From positions 1 through 32,591 of the forward strand of contig JAYEPB010000100.1 of assembly GCA_034723595.1 (NCBI GenBank): a stretch of 32,591 nt of DNA, read 5' to 3'. The notes below the pieces were generated by a model, which worked only from the letters and a program-made list of their open reading frames with translations, was not told the DNA's origin and searched no databases. How positions within the stretch are numbered: position 1 is the first letter of the stretch; each line of letters begins with the position of its first letter. This DNA is from Nanobdellota archaeon (GTDB lineage: Archaea; Nanobdellota; Nanobdellia; Woesearchaeales; JAGLGH01). The position numbers were made by a program, and so were the translations under genes. This document shows, piece after piece, positions 8,308-32,591 of this stretch.

Positions 8308-8311
8308 TTTA
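8263..8311. repeat. 49-bp direct repeat, copy 2
   Basis: Identical to 8103-8151. Confidence 0.9.
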
Positions 8312-8328
8312 TTTCTTTCAGAAATTTT

Positions 8329-15446: not shown

Positions 15447-16760
15447 TTAATTAGCAATATTAAATGTTATTGTCTGCCAATCTGTATATTCACCATCTGA
15501 TATCTTGATTGTAATTTCCTTTGTGCCCACCCACTGGTCTTCATCTATAATTAGATATGGCAGTTGCGGAACATATTCTATGCTTACATTATCCCCATCT
15601 GGTTCATAATATATCCTATGCTTGCCATAAGGCTCAAGCCAGTTTTTTATTTTATCGCTAAAATTATATATTACATTGCTTCCGGATTGCACAATAAGCA
15701 AGTCCTCATCATTTCCTATGATTGAATCTCCTACCTTTAAGTTAGGCAATTCCAATGAATCAATATAATGCAATGCTGGAGGTCTGTTTGCAATAAGCAG
15801 ATTTAATCTGAATGGGCTTCCGTCAATCAGATAAGAGCTGTCTTCAATCATAATGATATCATCAAATCCAGATGGTCCAATATCCCTCATTATGCCAGCA
15901 ATTCTTGCGCTGCCATATTGTTTTCCAAATGGTGAATTATCAATCATCAGGCATTCGGCATCAAGAATCATCCTGGCAAAAACATGGAGATTGTGCATCC
16001 GGAGAGGGATTCTCACTATGAAATCTTCAATTCGCGTCACATCATTTGTGGCTTTTTTTCTTATATCAAGTGGATAATTTATATCAACTACTGTTGATTT
16101 GTCATGGAAAGTTATATTTGCTGTTATATCGCCTTCACTAACTTCCAGATTTGCAAAATTCTCAAATCCTCTTGTGCATATTTTTATGTTATTTTCAATA
16201 TAATTTTTTAGCTGTTCTTTGATTGTGATAGGATTGGCAGGATCAGACAGACTCTCAAGTGAAGGGAATTTGACATAACCATAAAATCCCTGAAGTATGT
16301 GGGGATGGTTTATGCTCATGCTTGGGAAACTGTGAAAGGGATATTCTGGCATATATATTTTGTAGAAGCCAGTATCTTCTTTTAAAGATTTTTTAATTGT
16401 ATATGCTATATTTGCCTGCTCTGCCTCAATATATTGGTAATCTTCACCCTGTACCTCAAGAGAGAGGGGGATTAATCCGCCATCAACATCAAACAATGTG
16501 CCGCCACTTCGTCCAAACTTAAAAAATGCCTGATTTACCGTCAGGGCAACACAAGATTGAGCAAAATCCTGCAATTGCATGATATCTGCAGGAATCTGTC
16601 TGCTTTCTTCCACTTCTATCTCTGCCTCCTTTTCTCTTGTTTGACTTATCATTGTAAACATAATTAGGAATATGGCTATCAGCACCAGCCCTATTATGAT
16701 GAAAAATGTTATCTGTCCTTTCTGTTTCATTTTGTAATTCTTCCAAATTTTCTCGTTCAT
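15447..16760 (-). CDS. Pilin-like protein (class III signal peptide), 437 aa
   Basis: MNEKIWKNYKMKQKGQITFFIIIGLVLIAIFLIMFTMISQT... AGGA lies 6 nt upstream of ATG 16760, and a GTTTAAATAAA box at about 16788-16798 follows the upstream stop. An alternative start is ATG 16730 (MKQKGQ). Confidence 0.7.
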   Translation of the reverse strand: MNEKIWKNYKMKQKGQITFFIIIGLVLIAIFLIMFTMISQTREKEAEIEVEESRQIPADIMQLQDFAQSCVALTVNQAFFKFGRSGGTLFDVDGGLIPLSLEVQGEDYQYIEAEQANIAYTIKKSLKEDTGFYKIYMPEYPFHSFPSMSINHPHILQGFYGYVKFPSLESLSDPANPITIKEQLKNYIENNIKICTRGFENFANLEVSEGDITANITFHDKSTVVDINYPLDIRKKATNDVTRIEDFIVRIPLRMHNLHVFARMILDAECLMIDNSPFGKQYGSARIAGIMRDIGPSGFDDIIMIEDSSYLIDGSPFRLNLLIANRPPALHYIDSLELPNLKVGDSIIGNDEDLLIVQSGSNVIYNFSDKIKNWLEPYGKHRIYYEPDGDNVSIEYVPQLPYLIIDEDQWVGTKEITIKISDGEYTDWQTITFNIAN

Positions 16761-21134: not shown

Positions 21135-21230
21135 AAGATAATTCCTCTTTTTAGTATCCTTGTGTGAAATCCTCTGATATCTCACAAGATATTATAATGT
21201 ATTGCTATACTTGAATATTCATCAAACTGG

Positions 21231-21353: not shown

Positions 21354-22250
21354 ATGAAAAGAGTAGATATCAAGACAGGATTCTTATGCAATAACAATTG
21401 TAGGTTCTGCATCCAGGCTGACAATAAACTTAAAGGCAATAGGAGTTTTGAAGATATAAAAGAGGATTTGATTGGCTCAAAAGAAAGATGCGAAGGAGTA
21501 GTCTTTACAGGCGGAGAAGTCACAATAAGGAAAGACTTCTTTGATCTTGTCAAATTAGCCAAAGAATTGGGCTATAAGACAATACAGATACAGACAAACG
21601 GAAGGATGTTTGCATCATTGGATTTCTGTAAAAAAACAATTGCTGCTGGCGCAACAGAGTTCAGCCCTGCCTTGCATGGCTATTGCAAAGAACAGCACGA
21701 TTATCTGACTCGTTCCTCTGGCAGTTTCAATCAGACTGTCAAGGGCATCAAAAACCTTAAATCCTTGGACGCTTATGTCCTGACTAACACAGTTGTAGTC
21801 AAGCCAAATTACACAAATCTGCCTCAGATTGCCAGATTGCTAGTTAAACTTAATGCAGACCAGTTTCAGTTCGCATTTGTCCATCCTATGGGGAATGCAT
21901 GGAAAAATTTTAATAACATTGTTCCCCGTATTTCCTTGGCAGCACCCTATATGCATAAAGGCCTGCAGATAGGTGTTGATGCAGGAAAAAGAGTTATGGC
22001 AGAAGCAATGCCCTACTGCCTTATGCAGGGTTATGAGGATTATGTTGCTGAAATAGTGATTCCTGAGACAGAGATAAGGGGGAAGAAATATCAGAATACT
22101 GACCATTTTGATAAACAGAGGAAAGAACAAGGCAAAGCAAAATTCCCTCAATGCAAAAAATGCAAATATGAGGATATATGCGAAGGGCCATGGAGAGAGT
22201 ATCCTGAGAAGCAGGGACACACAGAATTTCAGCCTATTGATGATATTTAA
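21354..22250 (+). CDS. Radical SAM enzyme (COG0535-like) with a C-terminal CxxCx5C motif
   Basis: CNNNCRFC is a CxxxCxxC motif at residues 12-19. GGEVTIRKDF is the SAM-binding GGE motif and IQTNG follows. The C-terminus reads FPQCKKCKYEDICEGPWREY. It is paralogous to the C-terminal half of the next gene. Confidence 0.85.
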   Translation: MKRVDIKTGFLCNNNCRFCIQADNKLKGNRSFEDIKEDLIGSKERCEGVVFTGGEVTIRKDFFDLVKLAKELGYKTIQIQTNGRMFASLDFCKKTIAAGATEFSPALHGYCKEQHDYLTRSSGSFNQTVKGIKNLKSLDAYVLTNTVVVKPNYTNLPQIARLLVKLNADQFQFAFVHPMGNAWKNFNNIVPRISLAAPYMHKGLQIGVDAGKRVMAEAMPYCLMQGYEDYVAEIVIPETEIRGKKYQNTDHFDKQRKEQGKAKFPQCKKCKYEDICEGPWREYPEKQGHTEFQPIDDI

Positions 22251-22420: not shown

Positions 22421-24496
22421 ATGAAAATAATGCACATATCACCAATAAGGTGGCATCCTTGTTTTACTGAATTAATAAAAGAGCAGAGTAATGGACATAC
22501 CATACTTTTTGTTAAACTTGATTTGATTGAAAAAGATAAGTCTTATGAGGTTGTCAATGATGCAAGAGATGACTGCATACGAATAAAGAACATTAAAAAA
22601 TGCTGTGATCAGAATTATGATTCTAAGCTCAATATCATATTCAATAACTTGTTGAAGGAACACAAGCCAGATATAATTCATCTGCATGTTTTTTCCGGAA
22701 TAAGCCTGCTCCCGATATTGAATGCAGCCTCAAGCTTGGATATAAAAAAGATATTAACACTTCATGACCATTCTTTATTATGCATTAAAGGTCTATGTTA
22801 TAATCAGGATAACAAATGTGAATTAACTACATTAGCACAGTGTGATTGCCAGGAATGTCTGGAGCACTCATCTAAGAGCAATATCTCATTAAATTCCTAT
22901 AATCAGCGTAGGAAGATGTGGATAGAATCTATCATCAACCAATGTGACAAGATAATCTGTCCATCCAATTATCAGAAAAAGCAGATGACCACTTTATTTG
23001 GCAAAGATGCTAAAATCATATATTTATATTATGGTATTAAGTTGCCTAAATTCAAACAAGAGCAGAAAAAAATTAGCATGCCAGTTTTTGGATATTTAGG
23101 CACAACATCATGGATAAAGGGAATTAGATTAATAGAAGAAGCTATTAAAAAATTAAAAGGTTATGATTTTCGCATATTAATGGGATTCAGCAAATTGAGC
23201 AATCAAGATAACGCATTTTTTAAGAAAATTGACAAAAACAATGAAATTATAATTAAACAGGATATATCCAGAAATGCTTTATATCATCAGTTCTTCAGCC
23301 AAATAGATTACCTGATAATACCTTCAATCTGGAATGAGACTGGACCAATGACTTTATTGGAGTCATTTTATTATAAGGTACCTGTAATTCTATCTAATAA
23401 TGAAAGCATGGTGGAAAAGATAAGAGGGAATAAAAGTTCTATGGTCTTTAATAGCATTGATGAATTAGTTCTCATCATGAAACAGATTATCAATGGAGAT
23501 ATAAAAAAAGAAGAAAAAGATTTGTTTGCTGCCAAGAATATTGCCCAGTATTCTGAAGAGATAATTGAAATATATAAAGATGTGATGGCAGCTAAACAAA
23601 AAGGTTTATTTCTAAAACTTGGATATGAATGCAACAATAATTGCATTTTCTGTGTTACAGGCGATAATCACCCTAGAAAATTCATAGATCTTGAAATAAT
23701 TAAAGAAACTTTAAGAAAAAACAGGGGTAAATTCAATTCATTGGTCTTAACTGGAGGAGAACCAACAATCAGGAAGGATTTTTTTAAGATTTTAGACCTT
23801 GCTTATAGGCTGGGATATAAGATATTATTACAGACAAATGCAAGAATTTTCTCATATGAAACATTTTGTGATAACCTTAAAGGCTATAATTTAAAATTCA
23901 GCATTAATGTGAATTCTCCTGATTTCAGGATTCATGATGAAACTACTGGAGTAAAAGGCAGTTTTGCCCAGACTATCAAAGGCATTCAAAATCTACAAAA
24001 ACATGATTTTGAGATATTGGGCAAAATAATGCTGACACGCATCAATTATAGGCATGTTCTGGAAACTGTGAAATTTATAGCGCAGCTTGGGATTAGGGAT
24101 ATATGGCTTGTTTTTTTGACACCTTACGGCTCAGCTAAGATTAATTTTAATGATGTTATACCTGGATATTCGCAAGTCATGCCTTTTGTAAATCAAGCGC
24201 TTTTATGGGCAAAAGAGAACAGCAATATAAAGATGGGCATTGAAGGATTCCCTTATTGCTGCATAAATCAGGAATTCAGGCAATTAGTGACAGAAGAGAA
24301 CTTCAATAAAGATTCCCTGCAGGGCATATATGCTGGAGATGACAATTATGAGTATAATTGCAAATATGAAAGAGTTTTCACCCAAAAACAGAAGTTTGAC
24401 AACTGCAATGAATGCAGATATAATAATAAATGCGAAGGAATATATAAAGAGTATGTTAAGCATAATGGTAAAGGGGAATTTAAACCTATAAAATGA
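22421..24496 (+). CDS. Fusion protein: GT4-type (GT-B) glycosyltransferase (N-terminal ~390 aa) + radical SAM domain (C-terminal ~300 aa)
   Basis: The GT part contains MKIMHISP..., HKPDIIHLH, LTLHDHSLLC with a Cys-rich insert (CDCQEC), and PSIWNETGPMTLLESFYYKVPVI (the E-x7-E region). The radical SAM part contains GYECNNNCIFC, LTGGEPTIRKDFF, LLQTNA and a C-terminal FDNCNECRYNNKCEGIYKEY. Confidence 0.8.
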   Translation: MKIMHISPIRWHPCFTELIKEQSNGHTILFVKLDLIEKDKSYEVVNDARDDCIRIKNIKKCCDQNYDSKLNIIFNNLLKEHKPDIIHLHVFSGISLLPILNAASSLDIKKILTLHDHSLLCIKGLCYNQDNKCELTTLAQCDCQECLEHSSKSNISLNSYNQRRKMWIESIINQCDKIICPSNYQKKQMTTLFGKDAKIIYLYYGIKLPKFKQEQKKISMPVFGYLGTTSWIKGIRLIEEAIKKLKGYDFRILMGFSKLSNQDNAFFKKIDKNNEIIIKQDISRNALYHQFFSQIDYLIIPSIWNETGPMTLLESFYYKVPVILSNNESMVEKIRGNKSSMVFNSIDELVLIMKQIINGDIKKEEKDLFAAKNIAQYSEEIIEIYKDVMAAKQKGLFLKLGYECNNNCIFCVTGDNHPRKFIDLEIIKETLRKNRGKFNSLVLTGGEPTIRKDFFKILDLAYRLGYKILLQTNARIFSYETFCDNLKGYNLKFSINVNSPDFRIHDETTGVKGSFAQTIKGIQNLQKHDFEILGKIMLTRINYRHVLETVKFIAQLGIRDIWLVFLTPYGSAKINFNDVIPGYSQVMPFVNQALLWAKENSNIKMGIEGFPYCCINQEFRQLVTEENFNKDSLQGIYAGDDNYEYNCKYERVFTQKQKFDNCNECRYNNKCEGIYKEYVKHNGKGEFKPIK

Positions 24497-25383
24497 AAAT
24501 TTTAGTGCCTCTATCTAATCTTGAAGAAGTTAAGCCTTTATGTACTGCTGGCGCTGATCAGTTTTATTGCGGATTAGTCCATAAGAATGAATCTCTTAAT
24601 GACAGGCCAAATATAGGGAATTTTAATTTTACTGATATTGATGAACTCTCAAAAGCAGTAGATATTGTCCATGGCTTGGGAAAAGATATGTTTTTAGTGA
24701 TTAATAACATCACTCCTGATTTAGAGTCTGCTCTTAGTCAGGCACGAATTGCTGAGAAGCTGGGGATAAAAGGGGTTATTGTATCTAATCCTTTAGTTCT
24801 GAAGAGGATAAGGGAAGAGAAATTAAAATTAGATGTATGCGCAAGTTGTTTAACTGGAGCGTTAAACAGCCAGGCTATAAATTTCTTTCAGAAGTTAGGC
24901 GCAAAGCTTATTCATTTACCCAGGCATGTAGGAATAAAAGATTTAGAGATGATTTCTAATAATCTCGAGGGGATTGAACTATCTGTTTTTGGCATGAATG
25001 GCATGTGCATAAATATTGAAGCATACTGCTCATTGCATTACCTGAAAAATGAGTTCTTTATACCTTGCAATAATTTCAAAACAATTGAATTGGCTGGTGA
25101 AGGGTCATTGTCAAAGACTGAGATGAATAAAAAGATTAATTCTCCTAAGATTAGCTGTGGAATCTGCGCATTTAAAAGATTTAAAAAAATAGGGATAAGT
25201 TCAATTAAAATTGAGGGCAGAGGCATATCTACTAATAAAAAGATAATAAATGTGTCTATTGTAAAGGAAGCTTTAGACTTAGCCAATGAAAACATTAATG
25301 ATGCAGACTTTCACTTGCTCTGCAAAAGATTATTTAAGAAACATTTTAATGAAGATTGTAAAGTGGAATATTGTTACTTTTAA
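24493..25383 (+). CDS. Peptidase U32-family protein, UbiU-like Cys pattern
   Basis: MKILVPLSNLEEVKPLCTAGADQFYCGL...NFNFTDIDELSKAVDIVHGLGKDMFLVINN...GVIVSNP...ELSVFGMNGMCINIEAYCSLH...IKIEGRG follows the U32 family layout. Cys lie at about 172, 179, 192 and 222/225. The ATGA start overlaps the upstream stop. Confidence 0.7.
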   Translation: MKILVPLSNLEEVKPLCTAGADQFYCGLVHKNESLNDRPNIGNFNFTDIDELSKAVDIVHGLGKDMFLVINNITPDLESALSQARIAEKLGIKGVIVSNPLVLKRIREEKLKLDVCASCLTGALNSQAINFFQKLGAKLIHLPRHVGIKDLEMISNNLEGIELSVFGMNGMCINIEAYCSLHYLKNEFFIPCNNFKTIELAGEGSLSKTEMNKKINSPKISCGICAFKRFKKIGISSIKIEGRGISTNKKIINVSIVKEALDLANENINDADFHLLCKRLFKKHFNEDCKVEYCYF

Positions 25384-25385
25384 AG

Positions 25386-26117
25386 ATGGAAAAAGCAATT
25401 CATTTTAGGGCAATCCATAATTTGGATAGAATTAAAATCAAGGATATAGGCAGATTTTACTTTGGCGAAGAGTTTTGTGATCGGCTATTGCCTAGCAATC
25501 AGGAGATGAAAGAAGTAGTCAATAAAGCAAGAGAGTCAAATAAGGACATTTCCTTGTTGATACCCCCCTTGTCTGAGACAGGCCTGAAAAAGGCCATATC
25601 ATTGATTAATTTATTAGATTCTGGCAGTGAGGTTATTGTAAATGATTATGGGGCATTAAATCTTGTTGCTAATGAATTCGAGAATCCTATCATTATAGGG
25701 AGAGTAATGGGGAGAAACATACTTCAGGCTTTGAATATATTTAATAATGACAAAGATTTAATTAAGGAAAATATCCTTCTATTTGGTTCGAGAATTAAAG
25801 GCATCGACGTGGATTACTTTAATGCCAATAAAATTAATCCTATCTTGGCTAAGATTTTAGACTTTTCATTTTATAGGGGCCCCTTTTTTTGGACAGTGAC
25901 AAGGAGATGCGCATTTAATAGCAATTCCCAAAGTCTGCATAAATTTGCAGCCTGCAAAAAAGAATGTTTAAAAAACAAGGCAATAATTAAGAATACGCTA
26001 GTTAATAAAAGGTTTTTATTAGAAGGTAATAAGATAATTAATCTTGAAATGACTGCCAGAAAAAAGATAAACTATGGGTTATTTAAACGAGTAGTCTATA
26101 AGCTAAAAGAGAGTTAA
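25386..26117 (+). CDS. U32-related protein, UbiV-like Cys pattern
   Basis: MEKAIHF...RFYFGEEFCDRLLPS...ISLLIPPLSE...VIVNDYGALNLV. Cys lie at about 31, 175, 190 and 194 (C..., then C-x14-C-x3-C). The track start at 25371 is non-ATG; the ATG at 25386 lies 2 nt after the upstream stop. Confidence 0.6.
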   Translation: MEKAIHFRAIHNLDRIKIKDIGRFYFGEEFCDRLLPSNQEMKEVVNKARESNKDISLLIPPLSETGLKKAISLINLLDSGSEVIVNDYGALNLVANEFENPIIIGRVMGRNILQALNIFNNDKDLIKENILLFGSRIKGIDVDYFNANKINPILAKILDFSFYRGPFFWTVTRRCAFNSNSQSLHKFAACKKECLKNKAIIKNTLVNKRFLLEGNKIINLEMTARKKINYGLFKRVVYKLKES

Positions 26118-26118
26118 G

Positions 26119-27027
26119 ATGAATTTACCTAACGAAATAATCATAGAATTGACAAGAAAATGCAATCTGGATTGTGATTTTTGTTTTAACAAGCAAGGAA
26201 CTTATAATTCATGCGGGATTTCGCAAAAAGAGATTTTTAAAGTATTGCAGGAAGTTTCAGATTCTGGAATCAAGGCAGTGAGATTTACAGGTGGAGAGCC
26301 GTTCTTAAGAAAAGACTTATGCGAAATACTAAGAAAAGCCAAATCATTGGGCATGTATGTGATTCTCAACACTAATTCGTTTCTAATAGATGAAGGAAAT
26401 AAAGATTGTTTTAATTATGTTGATTTGGTTCTTTTTTCCTTGCATAATACTGCGCGATTTGAAAAAGTAAAAGAAAAGATGGATATGCTGAAAGATTATA
26501 ATTTGAAAATTATGCTTGGCACTATCCTTATACAACTAAATATAGATCCTCTTGAGGATTATTATGATTTCATCTCTAAATTAGATAGCAAAAACTTTGT
26601 AGAATGGTTCTTATTAAGACCAATACCAAATAAGTCCAATAAGAAGCCAATAACTAAAAAAGACATCAGAATCATCTATGAAAAAGTTGTGCAATATAAT
26701 AAGGAATATAATATGGATATTAAAATTGCAAATGCCTTGCCTTTCTGTGCAATAGATGAAGATTTACAATCTATCTGCAAAGGAGGGCATTTTGATTCTG
26801 GTTATACCAGGCTGGTTATTGATGCTGCTGGGAATTATAAAGCAGATTATTTTTCAAACATTTTAGGAAATATCAGTTCAAGCAATATTCTTGATGTATG
26901 GAATTCCAGAGAGATTAAGGATATTCGTGAATTTAAGAAGATTGATGAGAAATGCAAGACCTGCTGTCATCTCACAAAATGCAGAGGAGGCTTGATTGGA
27001 AAAGAATATTTGCGCAAGTTTGCCTGA
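26119..27027 (+). CDS. Radical SAM enzyme with a C-terminal SPASM/twitch-type auxiliary cluster domain
   Basis: CNLDCDFC is the CxxxCxxC motif and FTGGEPFLRKDL follows. The C-terminal region reads PFCAIDE...CKGG...VIDAAGNYKADYFSNILGNISSSNILDVWNS...CKTCCHLTKCRGG. The start lies 1 nt after the upstream stop. Confidence 0.8.
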   Translation: MNLPNEIIIELTRKCNLDCDFCFNKQGTYNSCGISQKEIFKVLQEVSDSGIKAVRFTGGEPFLRKDLCEILRKAKSLGMYVILNTNSFLIDEGNKDCFNYVDLVLFSLHNTARFEKVKEKMDMLKDYNLKIMLGTILIQLNIDPLEDYYDFISKLDSKNFVEWFLLRPIPNKSNKKPITKKDIRIIYEKVVQYNKEYNMDIKIANALPFCAIDEDLQSICKGGHFDSGYTRLVIDAAGNYKADYFSNILGNISSSNILDVWNSREIKDIREFKKIDEKCKTCCHLTKCRGGLIGKEYLRKFA

Positions 27028-27040
27028 TGAAATTTGAAAA

Positions 27041-28282
27041 TCAAATATTATTGAATTTTGCATATACTTTAAAATTTAATCCATTGGCAATTTTATATGC
27101 TGTGCTGCCAATATCATAATGGTTATTGATTGAAAGAATTTGTATTGCTTTTCTTATGTCTTCTCTATATTTCTTATTTAAGAATAAATCCGTGTTTTTG
27201 ATGAATTCTTTCGTCTTATCATCTAATTCTGCTTTTTCTCGTGTTTTTTGATTATTTAATATTGCCAGCAATTTTTTGTCATGGTCTTTGCAAATAATGT
27301 TTTTATTTAATTTGAGCTTATGATAATTCTCAACTTTTTGCACTGCCTCAACAATATCAATCTTCCCAAGCGGCTGGTTATTTATCAAGTCTGTGGATTT
27401 GCTGACATAGTTTGTTCTTACTAAATTCTCTTTTGGAACAACATTATATCCGCCGCCATGTTCTGATGCAATAATGGGGATGCCCATATGATTTGCTTCT
27501 ACAAGGACTCTTGGACATGATTCTAGATTTGCTGTTGAAGGGAATAACATAACATCTATATTTTTAAGGAATTCCCATATCCTTTGGTGAAGAATTGGTT
27601 TGCCTTCATTTATATGGATATAATTTCTTTGATCAATTTTATGCTTATTCAACAATGAGATTATTCTATCGCGAGAATATTCTGCTTGCGGCTTGCCGCA
27701 TGCGAGAAATTGTATATTTTTCTCTTTTAATGATTTAGATGATTCTATAAATATTTGCAAAGCCTGATCAAAGTTTTTTTCTTTCGATAGATGCCCTAAC
27801 CAGCCCAATACAATCTTGTTCTCTTGTTTATGTTTTTCGATTTTTGGGTGATTTTGAAAAGAATGCATGACTGGAAAACATACAGAGGTATTTTTTTCAT
27901 TTAAATGAGAGAAAAGTTTTATATAAAACTGTCTGGTAAATTCTGAAGGGATTATTAATTTGTCATTTTCATTCGAATATTTTGAACAAAGCTTTTCCTG
28001 CATCAAATATCCCCCCCAAAGAGTTGTGTGGATATCTCTTACTATGGTAAAATTTTTGTTGTATTTTTCTCTCAAATAATGGAAAATCCAGTCATAAGGT
28101 CCAGAATTGGTCAATAGTACATCTTCATCATTAAAACTTTTAATTTTTCTTAATATATCAAGAAAATGCATGCCCTTGGCATTAGGTTGTTCTGATAAAA
28201 AGCATGAATTATAGTAATAACATAAATTAGCCCCAAATTCGTTATTATTTTTATAATTGCAATAGATTATCATTCTTAGCAT
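27041..28282 (-). CDS. GT-B fold glycosyltransferase (GT4/GT1-like)
   Basis: GWLGHLSKEKNFDQALQIF... and MLFPSTANLESCPRVLVEANHMGIPIIASEHGG match the E-x7-E-type C-terminal domain motif. The N-terminal domain is divergent. Confidence 0.65.
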   Translation of the reverse strand: MLRMIIYCNYKNNNEFGANLCYYYNSCFLSEQPNAKGMHFLDILRKIKSFNDEDVLLTNSGPYDWIFHYLREKYNKNFTIVRDIHTTLWGGYLMQEKLCSKYSNENDKLIIPSEFTRQFYIKLFSHLNEKNTSVCFPVMHSFQNHPKIEKHKQENKIVLGWLGHLSKEKNFDQALQIFIESSKSLKEKNIQFLACGKPQAEYSRDRIISLLNKHKIDQRNYIHINEGKPILHQRIWEFLKNIDVMLFPSTANLESCPRVLVEANHMGIPIIASEHGGGYNVVPKENLVRTNYVSKSTDLINNQPLGKIDIVEAVQKVENYHKLKLNKNIICKDHDKKLLAILNNQKTREKAELDDKTKEFIKNTDLFLNKKYREDIRKAIQILSINNHYDIGSTAYKIANGLNFKVYAKFNNI

Positions 28283-28354
28283 AAGTTATATATATGTAAC
28301 TAAGAATACTAAGAAACATAGTTAATTTAAAAAGTTTTGGGGGTTTTTAGAGAT

Positions 28355-29503
28355 ATGAAGATTTGCATAGTTACTTTTGAATATCCTCCGCAAATTGGAG
28401 GGATATCTCATGCTGTGAATAGGATAGCTAAGGGGCTTTTAAAAAAAGGGGTTGAAATGCATATTGTTGCAGTCACTCCAAATAATAGAACATCTTTCTC
28501 TGAAAATTCTGTTTCTGAATCTGGAAATGCTATTGTTCATCGATTTGGTCCATCTAGCGGAGATCTTAAGCATATCTCTGGAAAAGAAGCTGAGGATCTT
28601 TCCAATTACCTTATAGAACTTGATAAAGAACATGATTTTGACTTGTTTCATGCATTTACAATTTTCCCTTGCGGCTATATCACTGTGAAAATTGCAAAAA
28701 AATTAGGCAAACCAGTGATAGTAAGCGGCAGAGGAGAAGATGGAGCAATTGACCTCAATAGCCATAATCTTGAAGAAAAAAGATGGGCTGTCAAAAATGC
28801 GAATTATCTAACTTTTGTCAGCACTGAAATGATGAATCATGTTGATTGCTTTGAAAGATGTAAATATAAATCAAAAGTCATACTCAATAGTTTAGATCCC
28901 TCTGAGTTCTATTTTTTGCCCCATTTTAAAAAACCTGAATTAAAAGGTTTTGTAATAGGCATCGCCACCACAATAAGAGAGATTAAGGGTTTTGAATATC
29001 TCTTAGAGGCTTTTGCAAGATTTTCTAAGAAATATGAATCTACTTTGATTTTAGCAGGAGATTTTAGGACAATTGACCTTAAAAAAAAATACTTATTATT
29101 GATTCATAAATTAGGAATTAGAAATAAAGTTGTAATTACTGGACTTATAAAGCATAAATTCATTCTTAACTATATTGATTTAATGGATGTTTATGTGCTG
29201 CCTTCTGTTTTTTCTGAAGGATGCCCTAATTCTTTGCTTGAAGCAATGTATTTAGGAAAGCCTGTTATTGGATCTGATATTGGAGCAATCCCTGAGATAA
29301 TAGAGCATAAGAAAAATGGTCTTCTATTTGCTTTAAAAAATGTGGCTGGGATTTATGAAAATCTGATCTTACTTAAAGAGGATAAAGAACTTTGCAAAGA
29401 AATCAAAAGTGAAGTAAAGAGGACAATTATTCAAAAATTCAAGTATGATAAAGAACCAAAAAGATGGTTTAAAATATATAATGAAATTATTAAATTACCT
29501 TAG
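28355..29503 (+). CDS. GT4-family glycosyltransferase
   Basis: MKICIVTFEYPPQIGGISHAVNRIAKGL... and LPSVFSEGCPNSLLEAMYLGKPVIGSDIGAIPEIIEHKKNGLLF are classic GT4 motifs. The track start at 28337 is TTG; the ATG at 28355 has GGGGGT ~10 nt upstream. Confidence 0.85.
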   Translation: MKICIVTFEYPPQIGGISHAVNRIAKGLLKKGVEMHIVAVTPNNRTSFSENSVSESGNAIVHRFGPSSGDLKHISGKEAEDLSNYLIELDKEHDFDLFHAFTIFPCGYITVKIAKKLGKPVIVSGRGEDGAIDLNSHNLEEKRWAVKNANYLTFVSTEMMNHVDCFERCKYKSKVILNSLDPSEFYFLPHFKKPELKGFVIGIATTIREIKGFEYLLEAFARFSKKYESTLILAGDFRTIDLKKKYLLLIHKLGIRNKVVITGLIKHKFILNYIDLMDVYVLPSVFSEGCPNSLLEAMYLGKPVIGSDIGAIPEIIEHKKNGLLFALKNVAGIYENLILLKEDKELCKEIKSEVKRTIIQKFKYDKEPKRWFKIYNEIIKLP

Positions 29504-29519
29504 GCTATTGATATATTTT

Positions 29520-29628
29520 ATACCACCAGTCTGTGACTGGTGTAATCAAGTGGTATTAAATATGCTCAATAGGAAGTGACCCGAGGCGAAGCCGAGCATG
29601 CCACCAGTGTTTCACTGGTGGTGGTCAC
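29520..29628 (+). other. GC-rich structured intergenic element with twin CCACCAGT/ACTGGTGG hairpins
   Basis: Hairpin 1 is caccagtc-tgt-gactggtg (29524-29542, 8 bp). Hairpin 2 is ccaccagtg-ttt-cactggtgg (29601-29621, 9 bp). An outer gtgacc/ggtcac pairing links 29576-29581 with 29623-29628. An alternative ataccac/gtggtat pairing links 29520-29526 with 29550-29556. The mini-hairpin sequence GCGAAGC is embedded near 29586. Confidence 0.45.
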
Positions 29629-29669
29629 GGACTTTTGACAAATTATATAATCAGAAAAAGATGCAGAAG

Positions 29670-32591
29670 ATGGGAAAAAGAATTATGTTTTATTGCCATT
29701 ATAGTGTAGGTCTTGGCCATTTTGTCAGGACATTTGCATTAGCCAAAGGCATAAAAAGAGTAAATCCAAATTCTGAGATTTTAATTGTTTCAGGCGGCGC
29801 ACCAGTTCCCATTAAATTGCCAGATGGAATACAAGGGATTAAAATTCTTAATTTGCCGCCACTTAGAGAATCACAAAACAACAGGGAATTAGAGCCATTG
29901 TCTGATGAATCAGCTGATGAAGTAAAAAAATCAAGGATAATTCAAATAATTAAGGCATATAGATTATTTAAACCGGATTTTTTATTTGTCGACCATTTCC
30001 CATTTGGAAGAATTGAACTAAAATATGAAATAACTGCTCTGCTTGATATTGCGATGAATTCTAATAAAAAACCAAAAATAATTTCCAGCATAAGAGACAT
30101 GGCTTTTGTGGAAAAAGATCATGAAGAAGAAACTGGACAGATGATAGAATACTTTTTGAACAAATACTTTGATTATTTATTAGTTCATTCTGACTATAGA
30201 GTAACTTGCATTGAAGATGAATTTGAGATATTAAAACAAGTTAAGATTCCTATAATCTATACTGGTTATGTCTGTTCAATGTCTGAAGAAGAGATTAAAG
30301 AAAATGTTAAAGAAAAGGTTAATTATACTGATGCAGATTATCCTTACGCAAAAAATGAAAAATTAATATTGGTTAGCGCAGGTGGAGGAAGGAGTTGCTT
30401 TGAGCTTATCAAAAAAACAATTGAGGCAAAAGAAAAATTAGACAAAAATAAAGTGAAATCAAGATTCTTGATACTGGCTGGCCCTTTCTTAAGCGAAGAG
30501 GAATTTTTATCATTAAAAGAACTTGCAAAAAAACATAGAGGTATAAGTCTAAAGCGATTTATACCTGATTTCATTGATGTTTTAAAACAAGCCGATGTTT
30601 CAATAAGCAATGTTGGATATAATACTACTGTTGAACTCCTATTGACTAAGACTAAATCCTTATTAATCCCCCATATCAAGAATTCTGTGATAAACAAGGA
30701 ACAGCTTGAACGAGCTAAAAAAATAAAAAACATAATCTCAGCAGAGATTCTTGATCCAAGAGAACTGAATCCAATGAAGATTGCGGATTGTTTGAACAAA
30801 TTAATGAGTTCTAAGCAAAATCAGGGTGATAGCAAACAATTTGAAGTTGATCTGAATGGCGCTGAATTTGCAGGAGAATTCATAAGCAATCTTAATAAGC
30901 CTTGCAGGGTATTTTTCAGAGATGATGATGTTCATGAAGTGACAGATAAGTTTATTGATTTAAATAATCTATTTTCAGATAAAAACATTCCAATACATTA
31001 TTCAGTCATACCTTGCACAATGTCTAAAAATTTGATTGAATACTTAAATAATATTAAGAAAAAACAACATAATATTGAGATAGGTCAGCATGGCTGGAGC
31101 CATAAAAAACATGGAGATTCTGTAAGCTATGAATTTGGCGATAAAAGGAGCTATTCTGAGCAATATGAAGACATTTCTAAAGGCAGGAATAAAATAGAGT
31201 CTAATTTTGAAATAAATCCAAATCTTGTTTTTACTCCGCCTCACAATAGATTAAATTCAGATACAATCAAGGTGCTTGAAAAACTTGATTTCAGGATAAT
31301 CTCTTCATCATGCTATTCTGATGAATACAATAAAATAAGACCTCCTCAAAAAATAAGGGATATTCCTATTTGTCTGGATTTATTTATCAAAATAGATGAC
31401 AAGTGGATATTAAAGGATAAAAGAGAACTAATAAAAGAGTTTTTTATTAAAAAGCAGAATGGAATAGTTGGCATAATGATTCATCATAAGTTTTTCAGTG
31501 ATAAAAAAGAATTTGAATTATTGAATGAGTTTATTGATCTTATGATTAGAGAAAAAGTACAATTTAAATCATTTGCGCAAATAAATAACTATTTAAAACA
31601 ATCAAAAAAAACAATTGCCTATCTCAGATCTAACTATCTTCCTGCTTCTGAAAACTTTATATATCAGGAAATTAAGAATATAAATCAATCTGATTCATGT
31701 TATGCAGCTGTAATTTCAGTTGTTAGGGAAAATGAAAATATATTCTCTGGAGTAGAGGTCATTGAGCAGCCACGATTCAAATCTTTACACACTGCCAATT
31801 ACCCATTCATAAAAAATTCACAGCTTAAGCTTTACAGCCAATTCATGAACTTTTGCGCAGATGAAATAATGTCAAGGGATGTTTCTTTGCTTCATGCCCA
31901 GTTTGGTGATGATGGGCTGTTCTTTTTGCCATTAAAAAGAAAAACTGGGCTGCCTTTAGTTGTATCTTTTAGGGGTTTTGATTTATACAGGCTGCCAAAT
32001 CAGTTCCCAAGGGTATATAATCCTTTATTCAAAGAAGCTGATTTGTTCTTGGTTAGGTCTAATTCCATGAAAAAAGATTTGATTAATTTGGGATGCCATG
32101 CTGAAAAAGTAAATGTGCATCATTCATCAATTGATTTAGATGAGATTGATGCAATCCTAAATAAAATACAAAATAAAGAAATAAGAGTCAATACAGAAAC
32201 AATAAAAGAGGAAAAAAGAGTTAATGAGAAAATTAAACTTATTTTCGCAGGAAGGTTTGTTGAAAAGAAGGGAATCTTTGATATTATTAAAGCGTTTTCA
32301 GGATTAAAGCAAGAGGGCAAGGATATTGAACTGAAGTTGATTGGCGACGGTCCCCTAAAAAAACAGGCAGAAAAAATGGTTTATGATTTGGAAATCAAAG
32401 ATATAACTTTTATGACCTTCTTAAGTCATGAAGATCTGATAAAAGAGATTAAAAAATCAGATATATTTGTTCTTCCAGGCAAAACTGCAAAAGACTGCAA
32501 TAAAGAAGGCATTCCTGTTATATTAATGGAAGCAATGGCTTGCGGCTTGCCTGTTGTTTCAACATTCCATTCAGGAATCCCTGAGTTAGTT
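29670..32591 (+). CDS. Partial CDS (continues past the right edge): tri-domain fusion of a MurG/COG4671-like GT-B glycosyltransferase, a polysaccharide deacetylase (CE4/DUF2334-like) and a GT4 glycosyltransferase
   Basis: Absent from the ORF track (no stop in the window). Hand translation in the frame of ATG 29670 is open to 32591 (~974 codons). It begins MGKRIMFYCHYSVGLGHFVRTFALAKG, and the first domain continues with ...LILVSAGGGRS...ILAGPFL...ISNVGYNTTVELL. From about 30900 it reads CRVFFRDDDV...IGQHGWSHKKHGD...FTPPHNRL. From about 31610 it reads ...VVSFRGFDLY...LIFAGRFVEKKG...FVLPGKTAKDCNKEGIPVILMEAMACGLPVVSTFHSGIPELV. In-frame ATGs also exist at 29598, 29661 and 29685. Confidence 0.75.
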   Translation, partial: MGKRIMFYCHYSVGLGHFVRTFALAKGIKRVNPNSEILIVSGGAPVPIKLPDGIQGIKILNLPPLRESQNNRELEPLSDESADEVKKSRIIQIIKAYRLFKPDFLFVDHFPFGRIELKYEITALLDIAMNSNKKPKIISSIRDMAFVEKDHEEETGQMIEYFLNKYFDYLLVHSDYRVTCIEDEFEILKQVKIPIIYTGYVCSMSEEEIKENVKEKVNYTDADYPYAKNEKLILVSAGGGRSCFELIKKTIEAKEKLDKNKVKSRFLILAGPFLSEEEFLSLKELAKKHRGISLKRFIPDFIDVLKQADVSISNVGYNTTVELLLTKTKSLLIPHIKNSVINKEQLERAKKIKNIISAEILDPRELNPMKIADCLNKLMSSKQNQGDSKQFEVDLNGAEFAGEFISNLNKPCRVFFRDDDVHEVTDKFIDLNNLFSDKNIPIHYSVIPCTMSKNLIEYLNNIKKKQHNIEIGQHGWSHKKHGDSVSYEFGDKRSYSEQYEDISKGRNKIESNFEINPNLVFTPPHNRLNSDTIKVLEKLDFRIISSSCYSDEYNKIRPPQKIRDIPICLDLFIKIDDKWILKDKRELIKEFFIKKQNGIVGIMIHHKFFSDKKEFELLNEFIDLMIREKVQFKSFAQINNYLKQSKKTIAYLRSNYLPASENFIYQEIKNINQSDSCYAAVISVVRENENIFSGVEVIEQPRFKSLHTANYPFIKNSQLKLYSQFMNFCADEIMSRDVSLLHAQFGDDGLFFLPLKRKTGLPLVVSFRGFDLYRLPNQFPRVYNPLFKEADLFLVRSNSMKKDLINLGCHAEKVNVHHSSIDLDEIDAILNKIQNKEIRVNTETIKEEKRVNEKIKLIFAGRFVEKKGIFDIIKAFSGLKQEGKDIELKLIGDGPLKKQAEKMVYDLEIKDITFMTFLSHEDLIKEIKKSDIFVLPGKTAKDCNKEGIPVILMEAMACGLPVVSTFHSGIPELV

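What the first reader, a model, noticed from the sequence alone, without database searches (positions are those of the whole stretch)
24493..26117. Adjacent UbiU/UbiV-like U32 pair inside a glycan cluster
Two translationally coupled U32-family genes are present. The first has Cys at about 172/179/192/222-225 (C-x6-C-x12-C...C). The second has one N-terminal Cys (about 31) plus C-x14-C-x3-C at about 175/190/194. As I recall it, this mirrors the four-Cys 4Fe-4S ligand layouts reported for E. coli UbiU (three mid-protein Cys plus a later one) and UbiV (one N-terminal Cys plus a C-terminal trio). UbiU and UbiV form a heterodimeric O2-independent hydroxylase; the related U32 enzymes RlhA and TrhP hydroxylate RNA. 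Here the pair is embedded between radical SAM and glycosyltransferase genes. Small-genome archaea of the DPANN type generally lack quinone biosynthesis. The pair may therefore be an anaerobic hydroxylase acting on a sugar, lipid carrier or protein substrate, which would be a new role for the family.
Basis: partly seen in the sequence, partly recalled or inferred. Interest (0 to 1): 0.75.

Follow-up and report, generated by a model that had tools for sequence, protein, structure and literature searches.

The report
Cryptic two-subunit U32 iron-sulfur enzyme
Two adjacent genes encode a paired iron-sulfur enzyme that resembles the oxygen-free hydroxylase UbiU-UbiV; the pair, whose second subunit no annotation database recognises, is widespread in anaerobes and here sits among radical-SAM and sugar-transfer genes rather than quinone genes.

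Summary
Gene A (24493-25383) is a Pfam U32 protein. Gene B (25386-26117) has no Pfam or NCBIfam hit. However, its family profile matches the A-type U32 profile at 95-96% hhalign probability, and its best fold match is the only solved U32 structure (5d88).

A keeps Cys1-3 plus a distal Cys, as UbiU does. B lacks Cys1 and has an N-terminal Cys plus Cys2-4, as UbiV does.

The pair is not a one-off. The B family has about 1,300 representative clusters. In 46 of 51 B genes examined, an A-type U32 gene lies beside it on the same strand. The hosts include Clostridia, CPR bacteria, DPANN archaea, Omnitrophota, Chloroflexota and Desulfotomaculum.

Neither protein is a UbiU or UbiV orthologue. B shows no special kinship to UbiV, and no quinone genes lie nearby. 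Radical SAM genes are the most enriched neighbours, and one archaeon fuses B to a radical-SAM/SPASM-like protein. Six related loci also carry His-Xaa-Ser repeat peptides with Hxs-type maturases.

Most likely this is a heteromeric U32 oxidase working with radical SAM enzymes on a glycan or peptide. Activity, substrate and heterodimer formation remain untested.

The parts
21354..22250 (+). Stand-alone radical SAM protein (298 aa), CxxxCxxC at residue 12, Cys-rich C-terminus. Related to HxsC/HxsC4.
   Evidence: Pfam Radical_SAM E 1.9e-19. The best NCBIfam hits are HxsC4 (164 bits, cutoff 500) and HxsC (98 bits, cutoff 268), so it is related but not a member.
22421..24496 (+). Fusion protein (691 aa): GT4/GT1 glycosyltransferase joined to an HxsC-like radical SAM domain. 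Its stop overlaps the start of gene A (ATGA).
   Evidence: Pfam Glyco_transf_4, Glycos_transf_1 and Radical_SAM. NCBIfam HxsC4/HxsC below cutoff. The same 691-703 aa fusion precedes A in L002, L005, L033-35 and L060. Junction read.
24493..25383 (+). Gene A: U32 TIM-barrel subunit (296 aa). Its ligand set is UbiU-type: C172-x6-C179-x12-C192 plus a distal C222-x2-C225. It has an extra conserved C-terminal pair, C289 and C294.
   Evidence: PF01136 E 2.6e-28. hhalign against UbiU gives 99.2%. The wide A family scores 99.8% against UbiU, 99.8% against TrhP and 99.5% against RlhA. AF2 pLDDT 85.4, and the top Foldseek hit is 5d88. Cys conservation and alignment to UbiU C169/176/193/232 are.
25386..26117 (+). 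Gene B: cryptic U32-like TIM-barrel subunit (243 aa). Its ligand set is UbiV-type: C31 ... C175-x14-C190-x3-C194. These are its only cysteines.
   Evidence: No Pfam or NCBIfam hit. All four Cys are at least 99% conserved in 124 relatives. hhalign against the A-type U32 family gives 95-96%. AF2 pLDDT 77.8, and Foldseek's top and only significant hit is 5d88. The Cys align with UbiV C39/180/193/197.
26119..27027 (+). Radical SAM/SPASM protein (302 aa) starting 1 nt after the stop of B. It is the module that is fused to a B domain in a Nanobdellota archaeon.
   Evidence: Pfam Radical_SAM, Fer4_12 and SPASM. It is 33% identical over 295 aa (E 2e-43) to the N-terminal half of P0035, the 687-aa fusion whose C-terminus is a B domain. 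Homologues lie within 10 kb of the pair in L002, L004, L005, L011, L014 and L018.
27041..28282 (-). GT1-family glycosyltransferase (413 aa).
   Evidence: Pfam Glycos_transf_1 E 3.2e-14. Conserved in the same position in L033-35 and L060.
28337..29503 (+). GT4/GT1 glycosyltransferase (388 aa from the TTG start).
   Evidence: Pfam Glycos_transf_1 E 2e-28 and Glyco_transf_4. NCBIfam hits to BshA-like and GT4 families, all below cutoff.
29598..32591 (+). Large multidomain protein (more than 998 aa) that runs off the end of the window: GT28-like domain, DUF2334/polysaccharide deacetylase, then GT4/GT1.
   Evidence: Open frame found. Pfam Glyco_tran_28_C, DUF2334, Polysacc_deac_1, Glyco_transf_4 and Glycos_transf_1. 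The full-length 1039-aa orthologue in L033 is followed by a DegT-rSAM-SPASM fusion and a carbamoyltransferase.

Best explanation
Genes A and B most likely encode the two subunits of a heteromeric U32-type iron-sulfur enzyme.

- A is a recognisable U32 TIM barrel. Its cluster would be held by C172, C179, C192 and a distal Cys (C225 or C222), which is the UbiU arrangement.
- B is a highly diverged U32 barrel. It has lost the first Cys of the family motif and supplies a Cys after strand 1 instead (C31 plus C175, C190, C194), which is the UbiV arrangement.

The pair is the middle of a four-gene, translationally coupled unit: GT4-rSAM fusion, A, B, rSAM-SPASM. That unit lies inside a glycosyltransferase-rich cluster.

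Every characterised U32 enzyme (UbiU-UbiV, TrhP, RlhA) is linked to hydroxylation without O2. By analogy, the pair most likely performs an O2-independent hydroxylation or oxidation on an intermediate that the neighbouring radical SAM enzymes also handle. The pathway would tailor a cell-surface glycoconjugate or a ribosomal peptide or glycopeptide, not a quinone.

Shown here: family membership, ligand equivalence by alignment, the obligate pairing, and the link to radical SAM.
Inferred: Fe-S binding, the heterodimer, hydroxylase chemistry and the substrate class.

Rough sub-confidences:
- Heteromeric Fe-S U32 enzyme: 0.8.
- Works with the rSAM enzymes: 0.65.
- Hydroxylase on a non-quinone, non-RNA substrate: 0.35-0.4.
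For: Family membership:
- A is PF01136. Its wide family matches UbiU, TrhP and RlhA at 99.5-99.8%.
- The B family matches the A-type family at 95-96%.
- The top fold hit for both models is 5d88.

Ligand equivalence:
- Joint alignment puts A172/A179/A192 in the columns of UbiU 169/176/193 and TrhP 170/177/193.
- It puts B175/B190/B194 in the columns of UbiV 180/193/197, and B31 in the column of UbiV C39. A225 aligns with UbiU C232.
- These residues are the experimentally defined ligands (PMC6747719).
- They are 90-100% conserved.

Obligate pairing:
- 46 of 51 B genes have a same-strand adjacent A. Of the 34 with at least 1 kb of flank on both sides, 31 do, and one more has a convergent A.
- Both gene orders occur.
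- Mantel r = 0.935, with 0 of 2000 permutations reaching it. Paralogous pairs within one genome co-diverge.

Radical SAM link:
- Radical_SAM is the top Pfam family among 128 neighbouring genes, with 16 members.
- The order GT-rSAM, A, B, rSAM is conserved in Nanoarchaeota and Omnitrophota.
- P0035 fuses an rSAM-like/SPASM module to a B domain and lies beside an A gene.

Sugar context:
- rSAM domains are fused to GT4, GT2, GT28-like and DegT domains.
- Deacetylase, epimerase, PMT_2 and carbamoyltransferase genes are present.

Precedent:
- U32 enzymes act as two-module units. UbiU-UbiV form a heterodimer. TrhP1 and TrhP2 always co-occur and both are required. About half of RlhA1-subfamily homologues carry a second U32 motif.
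- B-methyltransferase fusions fit the logic of hydroxylation followed by methylation.
Against: - There is no biochemical evidence. No U32 enzyme has yet been shown to hydroxylate in vitro.
- All known U32-linked substrates are aromatic or heteroaromatic rings, not sugars.
- Heterodimer modelling could not be run.
- AF2 gives the Cys loops of both proteins pLDDT below 50, so cluster geometry is unverified.
- B shows no specific kinship to UbiV (9% against 14-16% for TrhP and RlhA), so the shared layout may be convergent.
- In Clostridia the pair often stands without rSAM or GT neighbours, so the family's function need not be tied to this cluster type.
- The window clade lacks the Glu aligned with the essential TrhP E162 and RlhA E161. 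It has Ser164 there, with Glu162 two residues earlier (alignment; essentiality).
- Prephenate supply in a DPANN archaeon is doubtful (general knowledge).
Confidence: 0.45

Rival explanations
1. The pair is an RNA hydroxylase, a functional analogue of TrhP, TrhP1/TrhP2 or RlhA that makes ho5U or ho5C. Its position in the rSAM/GT cluster is incidental or regulatory.
For: - The A-type family is as close to TrhP and RlhA as to UbiU (99.8% and 99.5%).
- Tandem U32 paralogues with a methyltransferase are the B. subtilis tRNA solution.
- Sakai et al. predicted that an uncharacterised clostridial U32 subfamily replaces TrhP.
- In Clostridia the pair stands alone.
- In L036 the neighbours include a TYW1-like tRNA rSAM and nucleotide-metabolism genes.
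Against: - Start and stop codons overlap or abut those of the GT-rSAM and rSAM-SPASM genes.
- The same order is kept across domains of life.
- B is fused to an rSAM-like/SPASM protein.
- A scores 61 bits against the TrhP model (cutoff 534). It lacks the TrhP C-terminal motif and the DUF3656 domain of RlhA.
Confidence: 0.12
2. The pair is not a hydroxylase. It is an Fe-S redox or scaffold partner for the adjacent radical SAM enzymes, acting in electron delivery, cluster maintenance or substrate presentation, or it performs another Fe-S-dependent reaction such as dehydration or reduction.
For: - Radical SAM is the dominant neighbour.
- The B domain is fused to an rSAM-like/SPASM protein whose CxxxCxxC motif is lost. 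This suggests B can supply something that module lacks.
- A carries three further conserved Cys (C222 or C225, plus C289 and C294) that could hold a second site.
- The role of the clusters in known U32 enzymes is itself unresolved.
Against: - Both proteins keep full TIM barrels with conserved non-Cys residues. In B these include GxEFC, NDxG, GR and ExD. That looks like an enzyme, not a ferredoxin.
- Many pairs occur with no rSAM nearby.
- Every genetically characterised U32 system is tied to hydroxylation.
Confidence: 0.2
3. The pair is a true UbiU-UbiV orthologue that hydroxylates a prenylated quinone precursor anaerobically.
For: - The ligand layouts are identical in type.
- UbiU is the best NCBIfam hit for A and for other A-type members.
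Against: - A scores 79 bits against a cutoff of 440, and B does not hit the UbiV model at all.
- No UbiT/SCP2, UbiA/MenA or quinone methyltransferase was seen in the window, in the gene tables of the relatives' flanks, or among the 25 commonest Pfam families of 128 neighbour genes. The remaining neighbour families were not listed.
- UbiUVT is reported only in alpha-, beta- and gammaproteobacteria.
- The hosts here (Nanoarchaeota, Saccharibacteria, Clostridium) generally lack quinone synthesis (general knowledge).
Confidence: 0.02
4. The proteins are what the old family name says: collagenase-like U32 peptidases that process a peptide or surface protein, for example leader removal from an HxS-repeat precursor.
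For: - The family was historically annotated as PrtC/HP0169 collagenases.
- Related loci encode ribosomal HxS-repeat peptides that need processing.
Against: - Conserved four-Cys Fe-S motifs rather than a protease catalytic set.
- The loci with peptides already carry an A24-like membrane peptidase.
- The current literature reassigns the Fe-S-bearing U32 subfamilies to oxidase roles.
Confidence: 0.03

Closest known systems
E. coli UbiU-UbiV (YhbU-YhbV), the O2-independent, prephenate-dependent hydroxylase of ubiquinone biosynthesis
   Same: - Two adjacent U32-fold genes.
- One subunit has Cys1-3 plus a distal Cys (UbiU CX6CX16CX38C; A CX6CX12CX29CX2C).
- The other lacks Cys1 and uses an N-terminal Cys plus CXnCX3C (UbiV C39...CX12CX3C; B C31...CX14CX3C).
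- The ligands align column by column.
   Different: - The proteins are not orthologous: A scores 79 against a cutoff of 440, and B has no hit.
- B is not detectably closer to UbiV than to TrhP or RlhA.
- There is no UbiT and no quinone genes nearby.
- The hosts are anaerobes and small-genome lineages outside Proteobacteria.
- A has three extra conserved Cys.
- B escapes PF01136, whereas UbiV matches it.
B. subtilis TrhP1/TrhP2 (YrrO/YrrN), with the methyltransferase TrmR (YrrM)
   Same: - Tandem U32 paralogues in one operon, both required and always co-occurring.
- A methyltransferase is associated. Some B-family members are fused to class I methyltransferases.
   Different: - Both TrhP1 and TrhP2 are recognised U32 proteins of subfamilies PepU32#5 and #3.
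- The substrate is tRNA U34.
- No radical SAM partners are reported.
- The methyltransferase domains fused to B are generic and not TrmR- or CmoA-like.
TrhP (YegQ) and RlhA (YdcP), single-chain U32 RNA hydroxylation factors
   Same: - The A-type family matches them at 99.5-99.8%.
- Cys1-3 of A and Cys2-4 of B fall in their CX6CX15CX3C columns.
   Different: - They carry all four Cys in one chain plus C-terminal domains (DUF3656 in RlhA).
- A and B split the pattern into two complementary incomplete sets and lack those domains.
Mk0906 of Methanopyrus kandleri (PDB 5d88), the only solved U32 structure
   Same: It is the best Foldseek match of both AF2 models (B: E 1.2e-6, TM 0.55; A: E 9.5e-9).
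   Different: - Only 14-16% identity.
- Function unknown.
- It was solved as a single 'peptidase domain' without clusters, so it gives no information on the Cys loops.
HXS antiphage system (HxsD-HxsB-HxsC-HxsA) of Pseudomonadota
   Same: - The window's two upstream rSAM domains are most similar to HxsC/HxsC4.
- Six related A-B loci carry HxS-repeat peptides. Four of them also have HxsD and HxsB-like rSAM genes, and a fifth (L028) has an HxsB-like rSAM.
- HxsA is matured by rSAM enzymes.
   Different: - The canonical system has four genes, no U32 proteins and no glycosyltransferases, and 99.7% of instances are in Pseudomonadota.
- The window has no HxsA, HxsB or HxsD gene.
- Its rSAMs score far below the Hxs cutoffs.

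Membership tests
Peptidase U32 superfamily (PF01136; 'U32 oxidases') | Match to the PF01136 profile above the gathering score | tested here: met
   Met for gene A: 99.3 bits against a cutoff of 22.4. Gene B is treated in the next row.
Peptidase U32 superfamily (PF01136; 'U32 oxidases') | Gene B: match to PF01136, or demonstrable homology to U32 proteins | tested here: inconclusive
   The direct Pfam and NCBIfam test fails: no hit at E 10, and only 3 of 77 relatives hit weakly, best E 0.011. Remote homology is positive: hhalign of the B family against the A-type U32 family gives 95-96%, E 3e-9, and the B HMM hits clostridial U32 partners at 1e-8 to 1e-5. B is best described as a cryptic, highly diverged member.
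Peptidase U32 superfamily (PF01136; 'U32 oxidases') | (Beta/alpha) TIM-barrel fold like 5d88 | tested here: met
   The AF2 models (B pLDDT 77.8, A pLDDT 85.4) show alternating beta/alpha elements. Foldseek's top hit for both is 5d88.
Peptidase U32 superfamily (PF01136; 'U32 oxidases') | Four conserved Cys in a CX6CX15CX3/4C motif (PMC6747719) | tested here: not met
   Neither chain has the full canonical motif. A has Cys1-3 and lacks Cys4. B has Cys2-4 and lacks Cys1. Each compensates with a remote conserved Cys, exactly as UbiU and UbiV do.
UbiU (NCBIfam NF047963, equivalog) | Score above the curated cutoff (440 bits) | tested here: not met
   A scores 79.2 bits, and only residues 1-181 match. 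Other A-type members score 42-111 bits.
UbiU (NCBIfam NF047963, equivalog) | Ligand set C169, C176, C193, C232 (CX6CX16CX38C) | tested here: met
   A172, A179, A192 and A225 align with them. They are 93-100% conserved in 30 partners. Which of C222 and C225 is the fourth ligand is not resolved.
UbiV (NCBIfam NF047965, equivalog) | Score above the curated cutoff (275 bits), or specific similarity to UbiV | tested here: not met
   B has no NCBIfam hit. hhalign of the B family against UbiV gives 9-14%, which is no better than against TrhP (14%) or RlhA (16%).
UbiV (NCBIfam NF047965, equivalog) | Ligand set: one N-terminal Cys outside the motif plus CX12CX3C (C39, C180, C193, C197) | tested here: met
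   B31, B175, B190 and B194 fall in the same alignment columns. They are invariant in the family.
UbiU-UbiV system | Physical heterodimer, each subunit binding one [4Fe-4S] cluster | not testable with these tools
Only indirect support exists: adjacency in 46 of 51 cases, both gene orders, and Mantel r = 0.935.
UbiU-UbiV system | Association with UbiT (SCP2) and ubiquinone pathway genes; proteobacterial distribution | tested here: not met
   No such genes were seen in the window, in the gene tables of the relatives' flanks, or among the 25 commonest Pfam families of 128 neighbour genes. The remaining neighbour families were not listed. The hosts are non-proteobacterial. The rest of the genome could not be examined.
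UbiU-UbiV / TrhP / RlhA | Prephenate-dependent, O2-independent hydroxylation | not testable with these tools
   This needs genetics or biochemistry. No chorismate mutase or shikimate genes were seen in the flanks examined.
TrhP / RlhA | Curated model score; C-terminal TrhP motif or DUF3656; essential Glu eight residues before Cys1 | tested here: not met
   A scores 61 bits against the TrhP cutoff of 534. Only PF01136 is found in A. In the window clade the aligned position is Ser164, with Glu162 two residues upstream, whereas most other A-type members keep the Glu (alignment).
HXS system (HxsA-D) | HxsC/HxsB equivalog scores; an HxsA peptide with HxS repeats; HxsD | tested here: not met
   The window's rSAMs score 98-164 bits against cutoffs of 268-500. 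The window has no HxS-repeat ORF and no HxsD or HxsB-like homologue. These features are met in related loci L002, L014, L030 and L061, not here.

The most novel reading that the evidence does not exclude
The A-B pair could be the first U32 Fe-S oxidase devoted to a protein, peptide or glycan substrate. It would work as a third component with radical SAM/SPASM maturases in an extended Hxs-like pathway of CPR bacteria, DPANN archaea and Omnitrophota. One possibility is hydroxylation of the imidazole ring of His in His-Xaa-Ser repeat peptides that are also glycosylated. Another is oxidation of a sugar intermediate.

These hosts generally lack the shikimate pathway. The enzyme would then have to use an oxygen donor other than self-made prephenate. 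The complementary incomplete Cys sets (Cys1-3 plus a distal Cys, and an N-terminal Cys plus Cys2-4) would be an ancient, general design of heteromeric U32 enzymes rather than a quirk of UbiU-UbiV.
Probability: 0.3. Interest if true: 0.8.

Novelty: new variant of a known kind. Interest (0 to 1): 0.62.

Why it matters
U32 proteins are the only known enzymes linked to hydroxylation with an organic oxygen donor (prephenate). Only three substrates are known: a ubiquinone precursor, tRNA U34 and rRNA C2501. Most subfamilies are uncharacterised.

This work adds four things.

1. A partner family of about 1,300 representative clusters is invisible to Pfam and NCBIfam and is annotated as hypothetical, yet it almost always sits beside a U32 gene. 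Many 'single' U32 enzymes in anaerobes are therefore probably heteromers.
2. The odd split of Fe-S ligands seen in UbiU and UbiV recurs in an unrelated branch. This gives a sequence rule for spotting such heteromers.
3. There is a genomic link between U32 enzymes and radical SAM maturation machinery, including fusions. That points to a substrate class outside quinones and RNA.
4. Two cultured hosts, Clostridium sp. DSM 8431 and Desulfotomaculum copahuensis, make the hypothesis testable.

If the DPANN and CPR versions are active without a shikimate pathway, the question of the oxygen donor reopens.

Tried and rejected
- Sequence search of A, B and their profiles against PDB chains gave nothing useful. 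Even the A profile hits 5d88 only at E 0.93.
- hhalign of the narrow B alignment (7 sequences) against the A family or UbiV gave only 7-14%. The signal appeared only with wide alignments on both sides.
It listed only proteins at least 85% identical, so the profile added little.
- The search for related loci with the 77-sequence alignment failed because no stretch was conserved enough. The 7-sequence alignment worked.
The second prediction job went to A alone.
- Model coordinates are not exposed, so Cys-Cys distances could not be measured.
- Rfam found nothing in the window.
- PADLOC gave only generic viperin-like rSAM similarity.
- The methyltransferase domains fused to B were tested as possible CmoA or TrmR. 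They are generic, with the DVU_1556 family as best hit, below cutoff.
- A search for an HxsA-like peptide, HxsD, an HxsB-like rSAM or an A24-like peptidase in the window was negative.
- A literature search for U32 together with radical SAM and glycosyltransferase found no paper describing this cluster type.
- True UbiUV orthology and the peptidase reading were considered and rejected (see rival explanations).

Full report
**1. What is in the sequence**

The + strand carries four tightly packed genes:
- 22421-24496: a glycosyltransferase GT4/GT1 fused to a radical SAM domain.
- 24493-25383: gene A, 296 aa.
- 25386-26117: gene B, 243 aa.
- 26119-27027: a radical SAM/SPASM protein.

The junctions are an ATGA overlap, a 2-nt spacer and a 1-nt spacer.

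A further radical SAM gene (21354-22250) lies upstream. Downstream are three glycosyltransferase-type genes. The last of these is a multidomain protein (GT28-like, DUF2334/deacetylase, GT4) that runs off the window.

Homologues and gene calls in relatives support that start.

The window's closest relatives are MAG proteins labelled Nanoarchaeota (A is 91% identical to one). The window is the whole contig.

**2. Are both proteins U32?**

A is clearly U32:
- PF01136, E 2.6e-28.
- hhalign against UbiU gives 99.2%.
- The AF2 model has pLDDT 85.4, and its best Foldseek match is the only solved U32 structure, 5d88.

B is not recognised by Pfam, NCBIfam or PDB sequence search. Four lines of evidence still place it in the superfamily:
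- Its AF2 model (pLDDT 77.8) is a beta/alpha barrel. Its top Foldseek hit, and its only hit with E <= 1e-3, is 5d88.
- An HMM built from 124 B-family members hits the U32 partner proteins of Clostridia at 1e-8 to 1e-5. The match covers the beta3-alpha3-beta4 region: 'EVVVNDwGvL' against 'DAVIVSDLGLV'.
- Three of 77 B-family members touch PF01136 weakly.
- Once both alignments are made wide, hhalign of the B family against the A-type family gives 95-96% probability (E 3e-9 to 2e-8) over 213-236 columns.

B is therefore a cryptic, strongly diverged U32 homologue.

**3. Cysteine ligands**

Pelosi et al. showed experimentally that UbiU binds its [4Fe-4S] cluster through C169, C176, C193 and C232. 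UbiV binds its cluster through C39, C180, C193 and C197. Most other U32 families carry CX6CX15CX3/4C (PMC6747719; positions checked on the K-12 genes).

A joint alignment of A, B, four more A-B pairs, UbiU, UbiV, TrhP and RlhA gives clean columns:

| Position | Present in | Absent from |
|---|---|---|
| Cys1 | A172, UbiU169, TrhP170, RlhA169 | B, UbiV |
| Cys2 | A179, B175, UbiU176, UbiV180, TrhP177, RlhA176 | - |
| Cys3 | A192, B190, UbiU193, UbiV193, TrhP193, RlhA192 | - |
| Cys4 | B194, UbiV197, TrhP197, RlhA196 | A, UbiU |
| N-terminal Cys | B31, UbiV39 | - |

- In a separate alignment of 30 A-type proteins with UbiU, C232 falls on A225.
- The four Cys of B are its only cysteines and are at least 99% conserved in 124 relatives that average about 25% identity.
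- In A-type proteins, C172 and C179 are 100% conserved. C192, C222, C225, C289 and C294 are 90-93% conserved.

A and B thus reproduce the peculiar complementary split of UbiU and UbiV. A carries three more conserved Cys than UbiU needs (one of C222/C225, plus C289 and C294). That may be a second metal site (inference).

**4. The pair is a family, not a one-off**

A profile search of 1.84 billion representatives found 1,324 B-family clusters with E <= 1e-3 and 634 with E <= 1e-10. Nearly all are 230-290 aa.

Scans of GTDB genomes and JGI metagenomes, plus contig look-ups, gave about 45 non-redundant loci. The hosts include:
- Omnitrophota and Iainarchaeota.
- Another uncultured archaeon, and Nanobdellota.
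- Saccharibacteria, Peribacteria and Elusimicrobia.
- Chloroflexota, Desulfosarcinaceae and Eggerthellaceae.
- Many Clostridia MAGs.
- Two cultured organisms: Clostridium sp. DSM 8431 (two pairs) and Desulfotomaculum copahuensis.

Of 51 B genes, 46 have an A-type U32 gene directly beside them on the same strand. Of the 34 with at least 1 kb of flank on both sides, 31 do. One more (L036) has a convergent A, and two (L013, L046) are lone.

Both gene orders occur. The A and B distance matrices correlate (Mantel r = 0.935; 0 of 2000 permutations reach it). The two pairs in one Clostridium genome each find the same nearest neighbour for A and for B. This pattern is what one expects of an obligate heteromer, but it is not a physical demonstration.

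**5. Relation to characterised U32 enzymes**

- NCBIfam's best hit for A-type proteins is UbiU, then TrhP. All scores are far below the cutoffs: 79 against 440 and 61 against 534 for the window protein.
- By hhalign the wide A family is equally close to UbiU, TrhP and RlhA (99.8%, 99.8%, 99.5%). It is distant from UbiV (32%).
- The B family is not closer to UbiV (9%) than to TrhP (14%) or RlhA (16%).
- 'UbiU/UbiV-like' is therefore accurate for the architecture and ligand layout, but not for orthology. The shared layout could be ancient or convergent.
- The literature gives precedent for two-module U32 units. UbiU-UbiV form a heterodimer. B. subtilis TrhP1 and TrhP2 are tandem, both required, always co-occur, and share an operon with a methyltransferase. 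About half of RlhA1-subfamily homologues carry a second U32 motif.

**6. Context and likely role**

In the window's clade the order GT-rSAM fusion, A, B, rSAM(-SPASM, sometimes fused to GT2) is conserved. It is seen in Nanoarchaeota-type contigs and in an Omnitrophota bacterium whose proteins are 42-51% identical. This implies transfer between domains.

Those clusters hold radical SAM domains fused to GT4, GT2, GT28-like and DegT aminotransferase domains. They also hold polysaccharide deacetylase/DUF2334, NAD-epimerase, PMT_2 (a GT-C glycosyltransferase), asparagine synthase-like and carbamoyltransferase genes. The radical SAM enzymes therefore very probably act on sugars or glycoconjugates.

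Across the more distant loci, Radical_SAM is by far the commonest Pfam family among 128 flanking genes (16 members). Saccharibacteria loci have eight or more radical SAM-motif genes each.

In a Nanobdellota archaeon, an A gene lies tail to tail with a 687-aa protein (P0035). Its N-terminal half is 33% identical to the window's 26119 rSAM-SPASM protein but has lost the CxxxCxxC motif. Its C-terminus is a complete B domain.

Six B-family representatives are fused to class I methyltransferases.

No quinone gene, UbiT or riboswitch is present in the window.

In Clostridia the pair usually stands alone or next to metal-transport genes. The link to rSAM/GT clusters is therefore a property of the small-genome lineages and some others, not of the whole family.

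**7. An unexpected link to His-Xaa-Ser systems**

The window's two upstream radical SAM domains are most similar to HxsC and HxsC4, but score below the cutoffs.

Scanning all loci found small ORFs of 70-134 aa. Each has a conserved leader ('SFIKDEKGSISKQSLLSLG'-like) and C-terminal (His-Xaa-Ser) repeats of 3-10 units. They lie within about 6 kb of the A-B pair in six independent loci:
- L002, Omnitrophota.
- L004, two copies.
- L014, Iainarchaeum.
- L028, Peribacteria.
- L030, Elusimicrobia.
- L061, whose A is 50% identical to the window's.

Four of these loci (L002, L014, L030, L061) also encode HxsD and an HxsB-like rSAM of about 470 aa. L028 has an HxsB-like rSAM. Three of the four (L002, L014, L061) also carry an A24-like membrane peptidase. 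No other ORF in about 0.75 Mb of six-frame translation matched the repeat pattern.

The canonical HxsD-B-C-A system was shown in 2026 to be an antiphage system of Pseudomonadota. Its rSAM enzymes mature HxsA through cleavage and a +8 Da modification in an HxS repeat (PMC13128918). That system contains no U32 proteins or glycosyltransferases.

The window itself has no HxsA, HxsB or HxsD, so this is a lead and not a classification. It widens the candidate substrates from 'glycan' to 'peptide or glycopeptide'. An aromatic His side chain would fit the known preference of U32 systems for aromatic or heteroaromatic rings (inference).

**8. Verdict**

- The pair is a UbiU/UbiV-style heteromeric U32 Fe-S enzyme in architecture.
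- It is almost certainly not a quinone enzyme.
- It is genomically tied to radical SAM tailoring enzymes in a sugar-rich cluster.

It is also a member of a large, unannotated, cross-phylum family. Its chemistry and substrate remain inferred.

I rate it a new variant of a known kind, with interest of about 0.6. It is neither an artefact nor already explained. It yields a testable rule (complementary split Cys sets mark a U32 heteromer), a cryptic partner family, and cultured hosts for experiments. But no new mechanism is demonstrated.

Noticed in passing
L002 4103-4387; L004 1-276 and 1132-1461 (minus strand); L014 3708-4181; L028 14498-14782; L030 16141-16422; L061 6462-6791: Small ORFs with a shared leader and C-terminal His-Xaa-Ser repeats (HxsA-like) lie within about 6 kb of the A-B pair in six loci from different phyla. 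Four of them (L002, L014, L030, L061) also have HxsD and an HxsB-like rSAM, L028 has an HxsB-like rSAM, and three (L002, L014, L061) have an A24-like peptidase. None is present in the window.
   Followed up: partly
L036 1826-3889 (minus strand), protein P0035; A gene at L036 972-1829: A Nanobdellota archaeon has a 687-aa fusion of an rSAM-like/SPASM module and a complete B domain, convergent with an A-type U32 gene. The fusion's N-terminal half is homologous to window 26119-27027, but its CxxxCxxC motif is lost and only C22 remains.
   Followed up: partly
Proteins P0073, P0078, P0082, P0140, P0143, P0149 (B-family representatives): B domains are fused N- or C-terminally to class I SAM methyltransferase domains. 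The best NCBIfam match is the DVU_1556 family, below cutoff, and they are not CmoA or TrmR. Their genomic context could not be looked up.
   Followed up: partly
window 24493-25383 (residues C26, C222, C225, C289, C294): A-type proteins conserve more Cys than a single 4Fe-4S cluster needs: a CxxC at 222/225 and a C-terminal C289-x4-C294 (90-93% conserved), plus C26 in 60%. UbiU lacks these. This may be a second metal site. It was not modelled because coordinates are not exposed.
   Followed up: no
L016 4939-5034; L021 5508-5601: NiCo (nickel/cobalt) riboswitches precede a czcD-like cation-efflux gene two to three genes upstream of the A-B pair in two Clostridium MAGs. Other Clostridium loci have FeoB, P-type ATPase and HMA-domain genes nearby. 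The intergenic gaps of about 200 nt make a shared operon uncertain.
   Followed up: no
window 8852-15406 (minus strand) and 16803-21185 (minus strand): Two giant ORFs (2184 and 1460 aa) are transcribed divergently from the cluster. They have almost no Pfam signal, only one bacterial TSP3 repeat. Their GC content (0.36-0.43) is higher than that of the cluster (0.30-0.35). They may be surface proteins and candidate glycosylation targets.
   Followed up: no
L002 / L007 (Omnitrophota, GCA_026387355.1) compared with the window: The bacterial Omnitrophota cluster shares gene order with the archaeal window (691-aa GT-rSAM fusion, A, B, rSAM) at 42-51% protein identity. It is closer than many archaeal versions, which suggests cross-domain transfer of the module.
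   Followed up: partly
L011 6180-7798 and 9001-10654; L009 and L015 (Clostridium sp. DSM 8431): Some genomes carry two A-B pairs. A Saccharibacteria contig has them in near-tandem among about eight radical SAM-motif genes. The cultured Clostridium has two unlinked pairs, one followed by an HxsB-like rSAM-SPASM gene.
   Followed up: partly
window 3010-3927 (minus strand) and 4082-4537 (plus strand): A 305-aa ORF has an N-terminal MazE/AbrB-type antitoxin domain, and an Lrp/AsnC-family regulator lies beside it. ORFs 901-3027, 5435-8907 and 15447-16760 have no Pfam match.
   Followed up: no
L013 10001-10783; L046 9950-10744: Two loci have a B gene with no detectable A-type partner beside it. In L046 the next gene looks like a GT2 glycosyltransferase. 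In L013 the upstream gene is LptD/OstA-like.
   Followed up: partly
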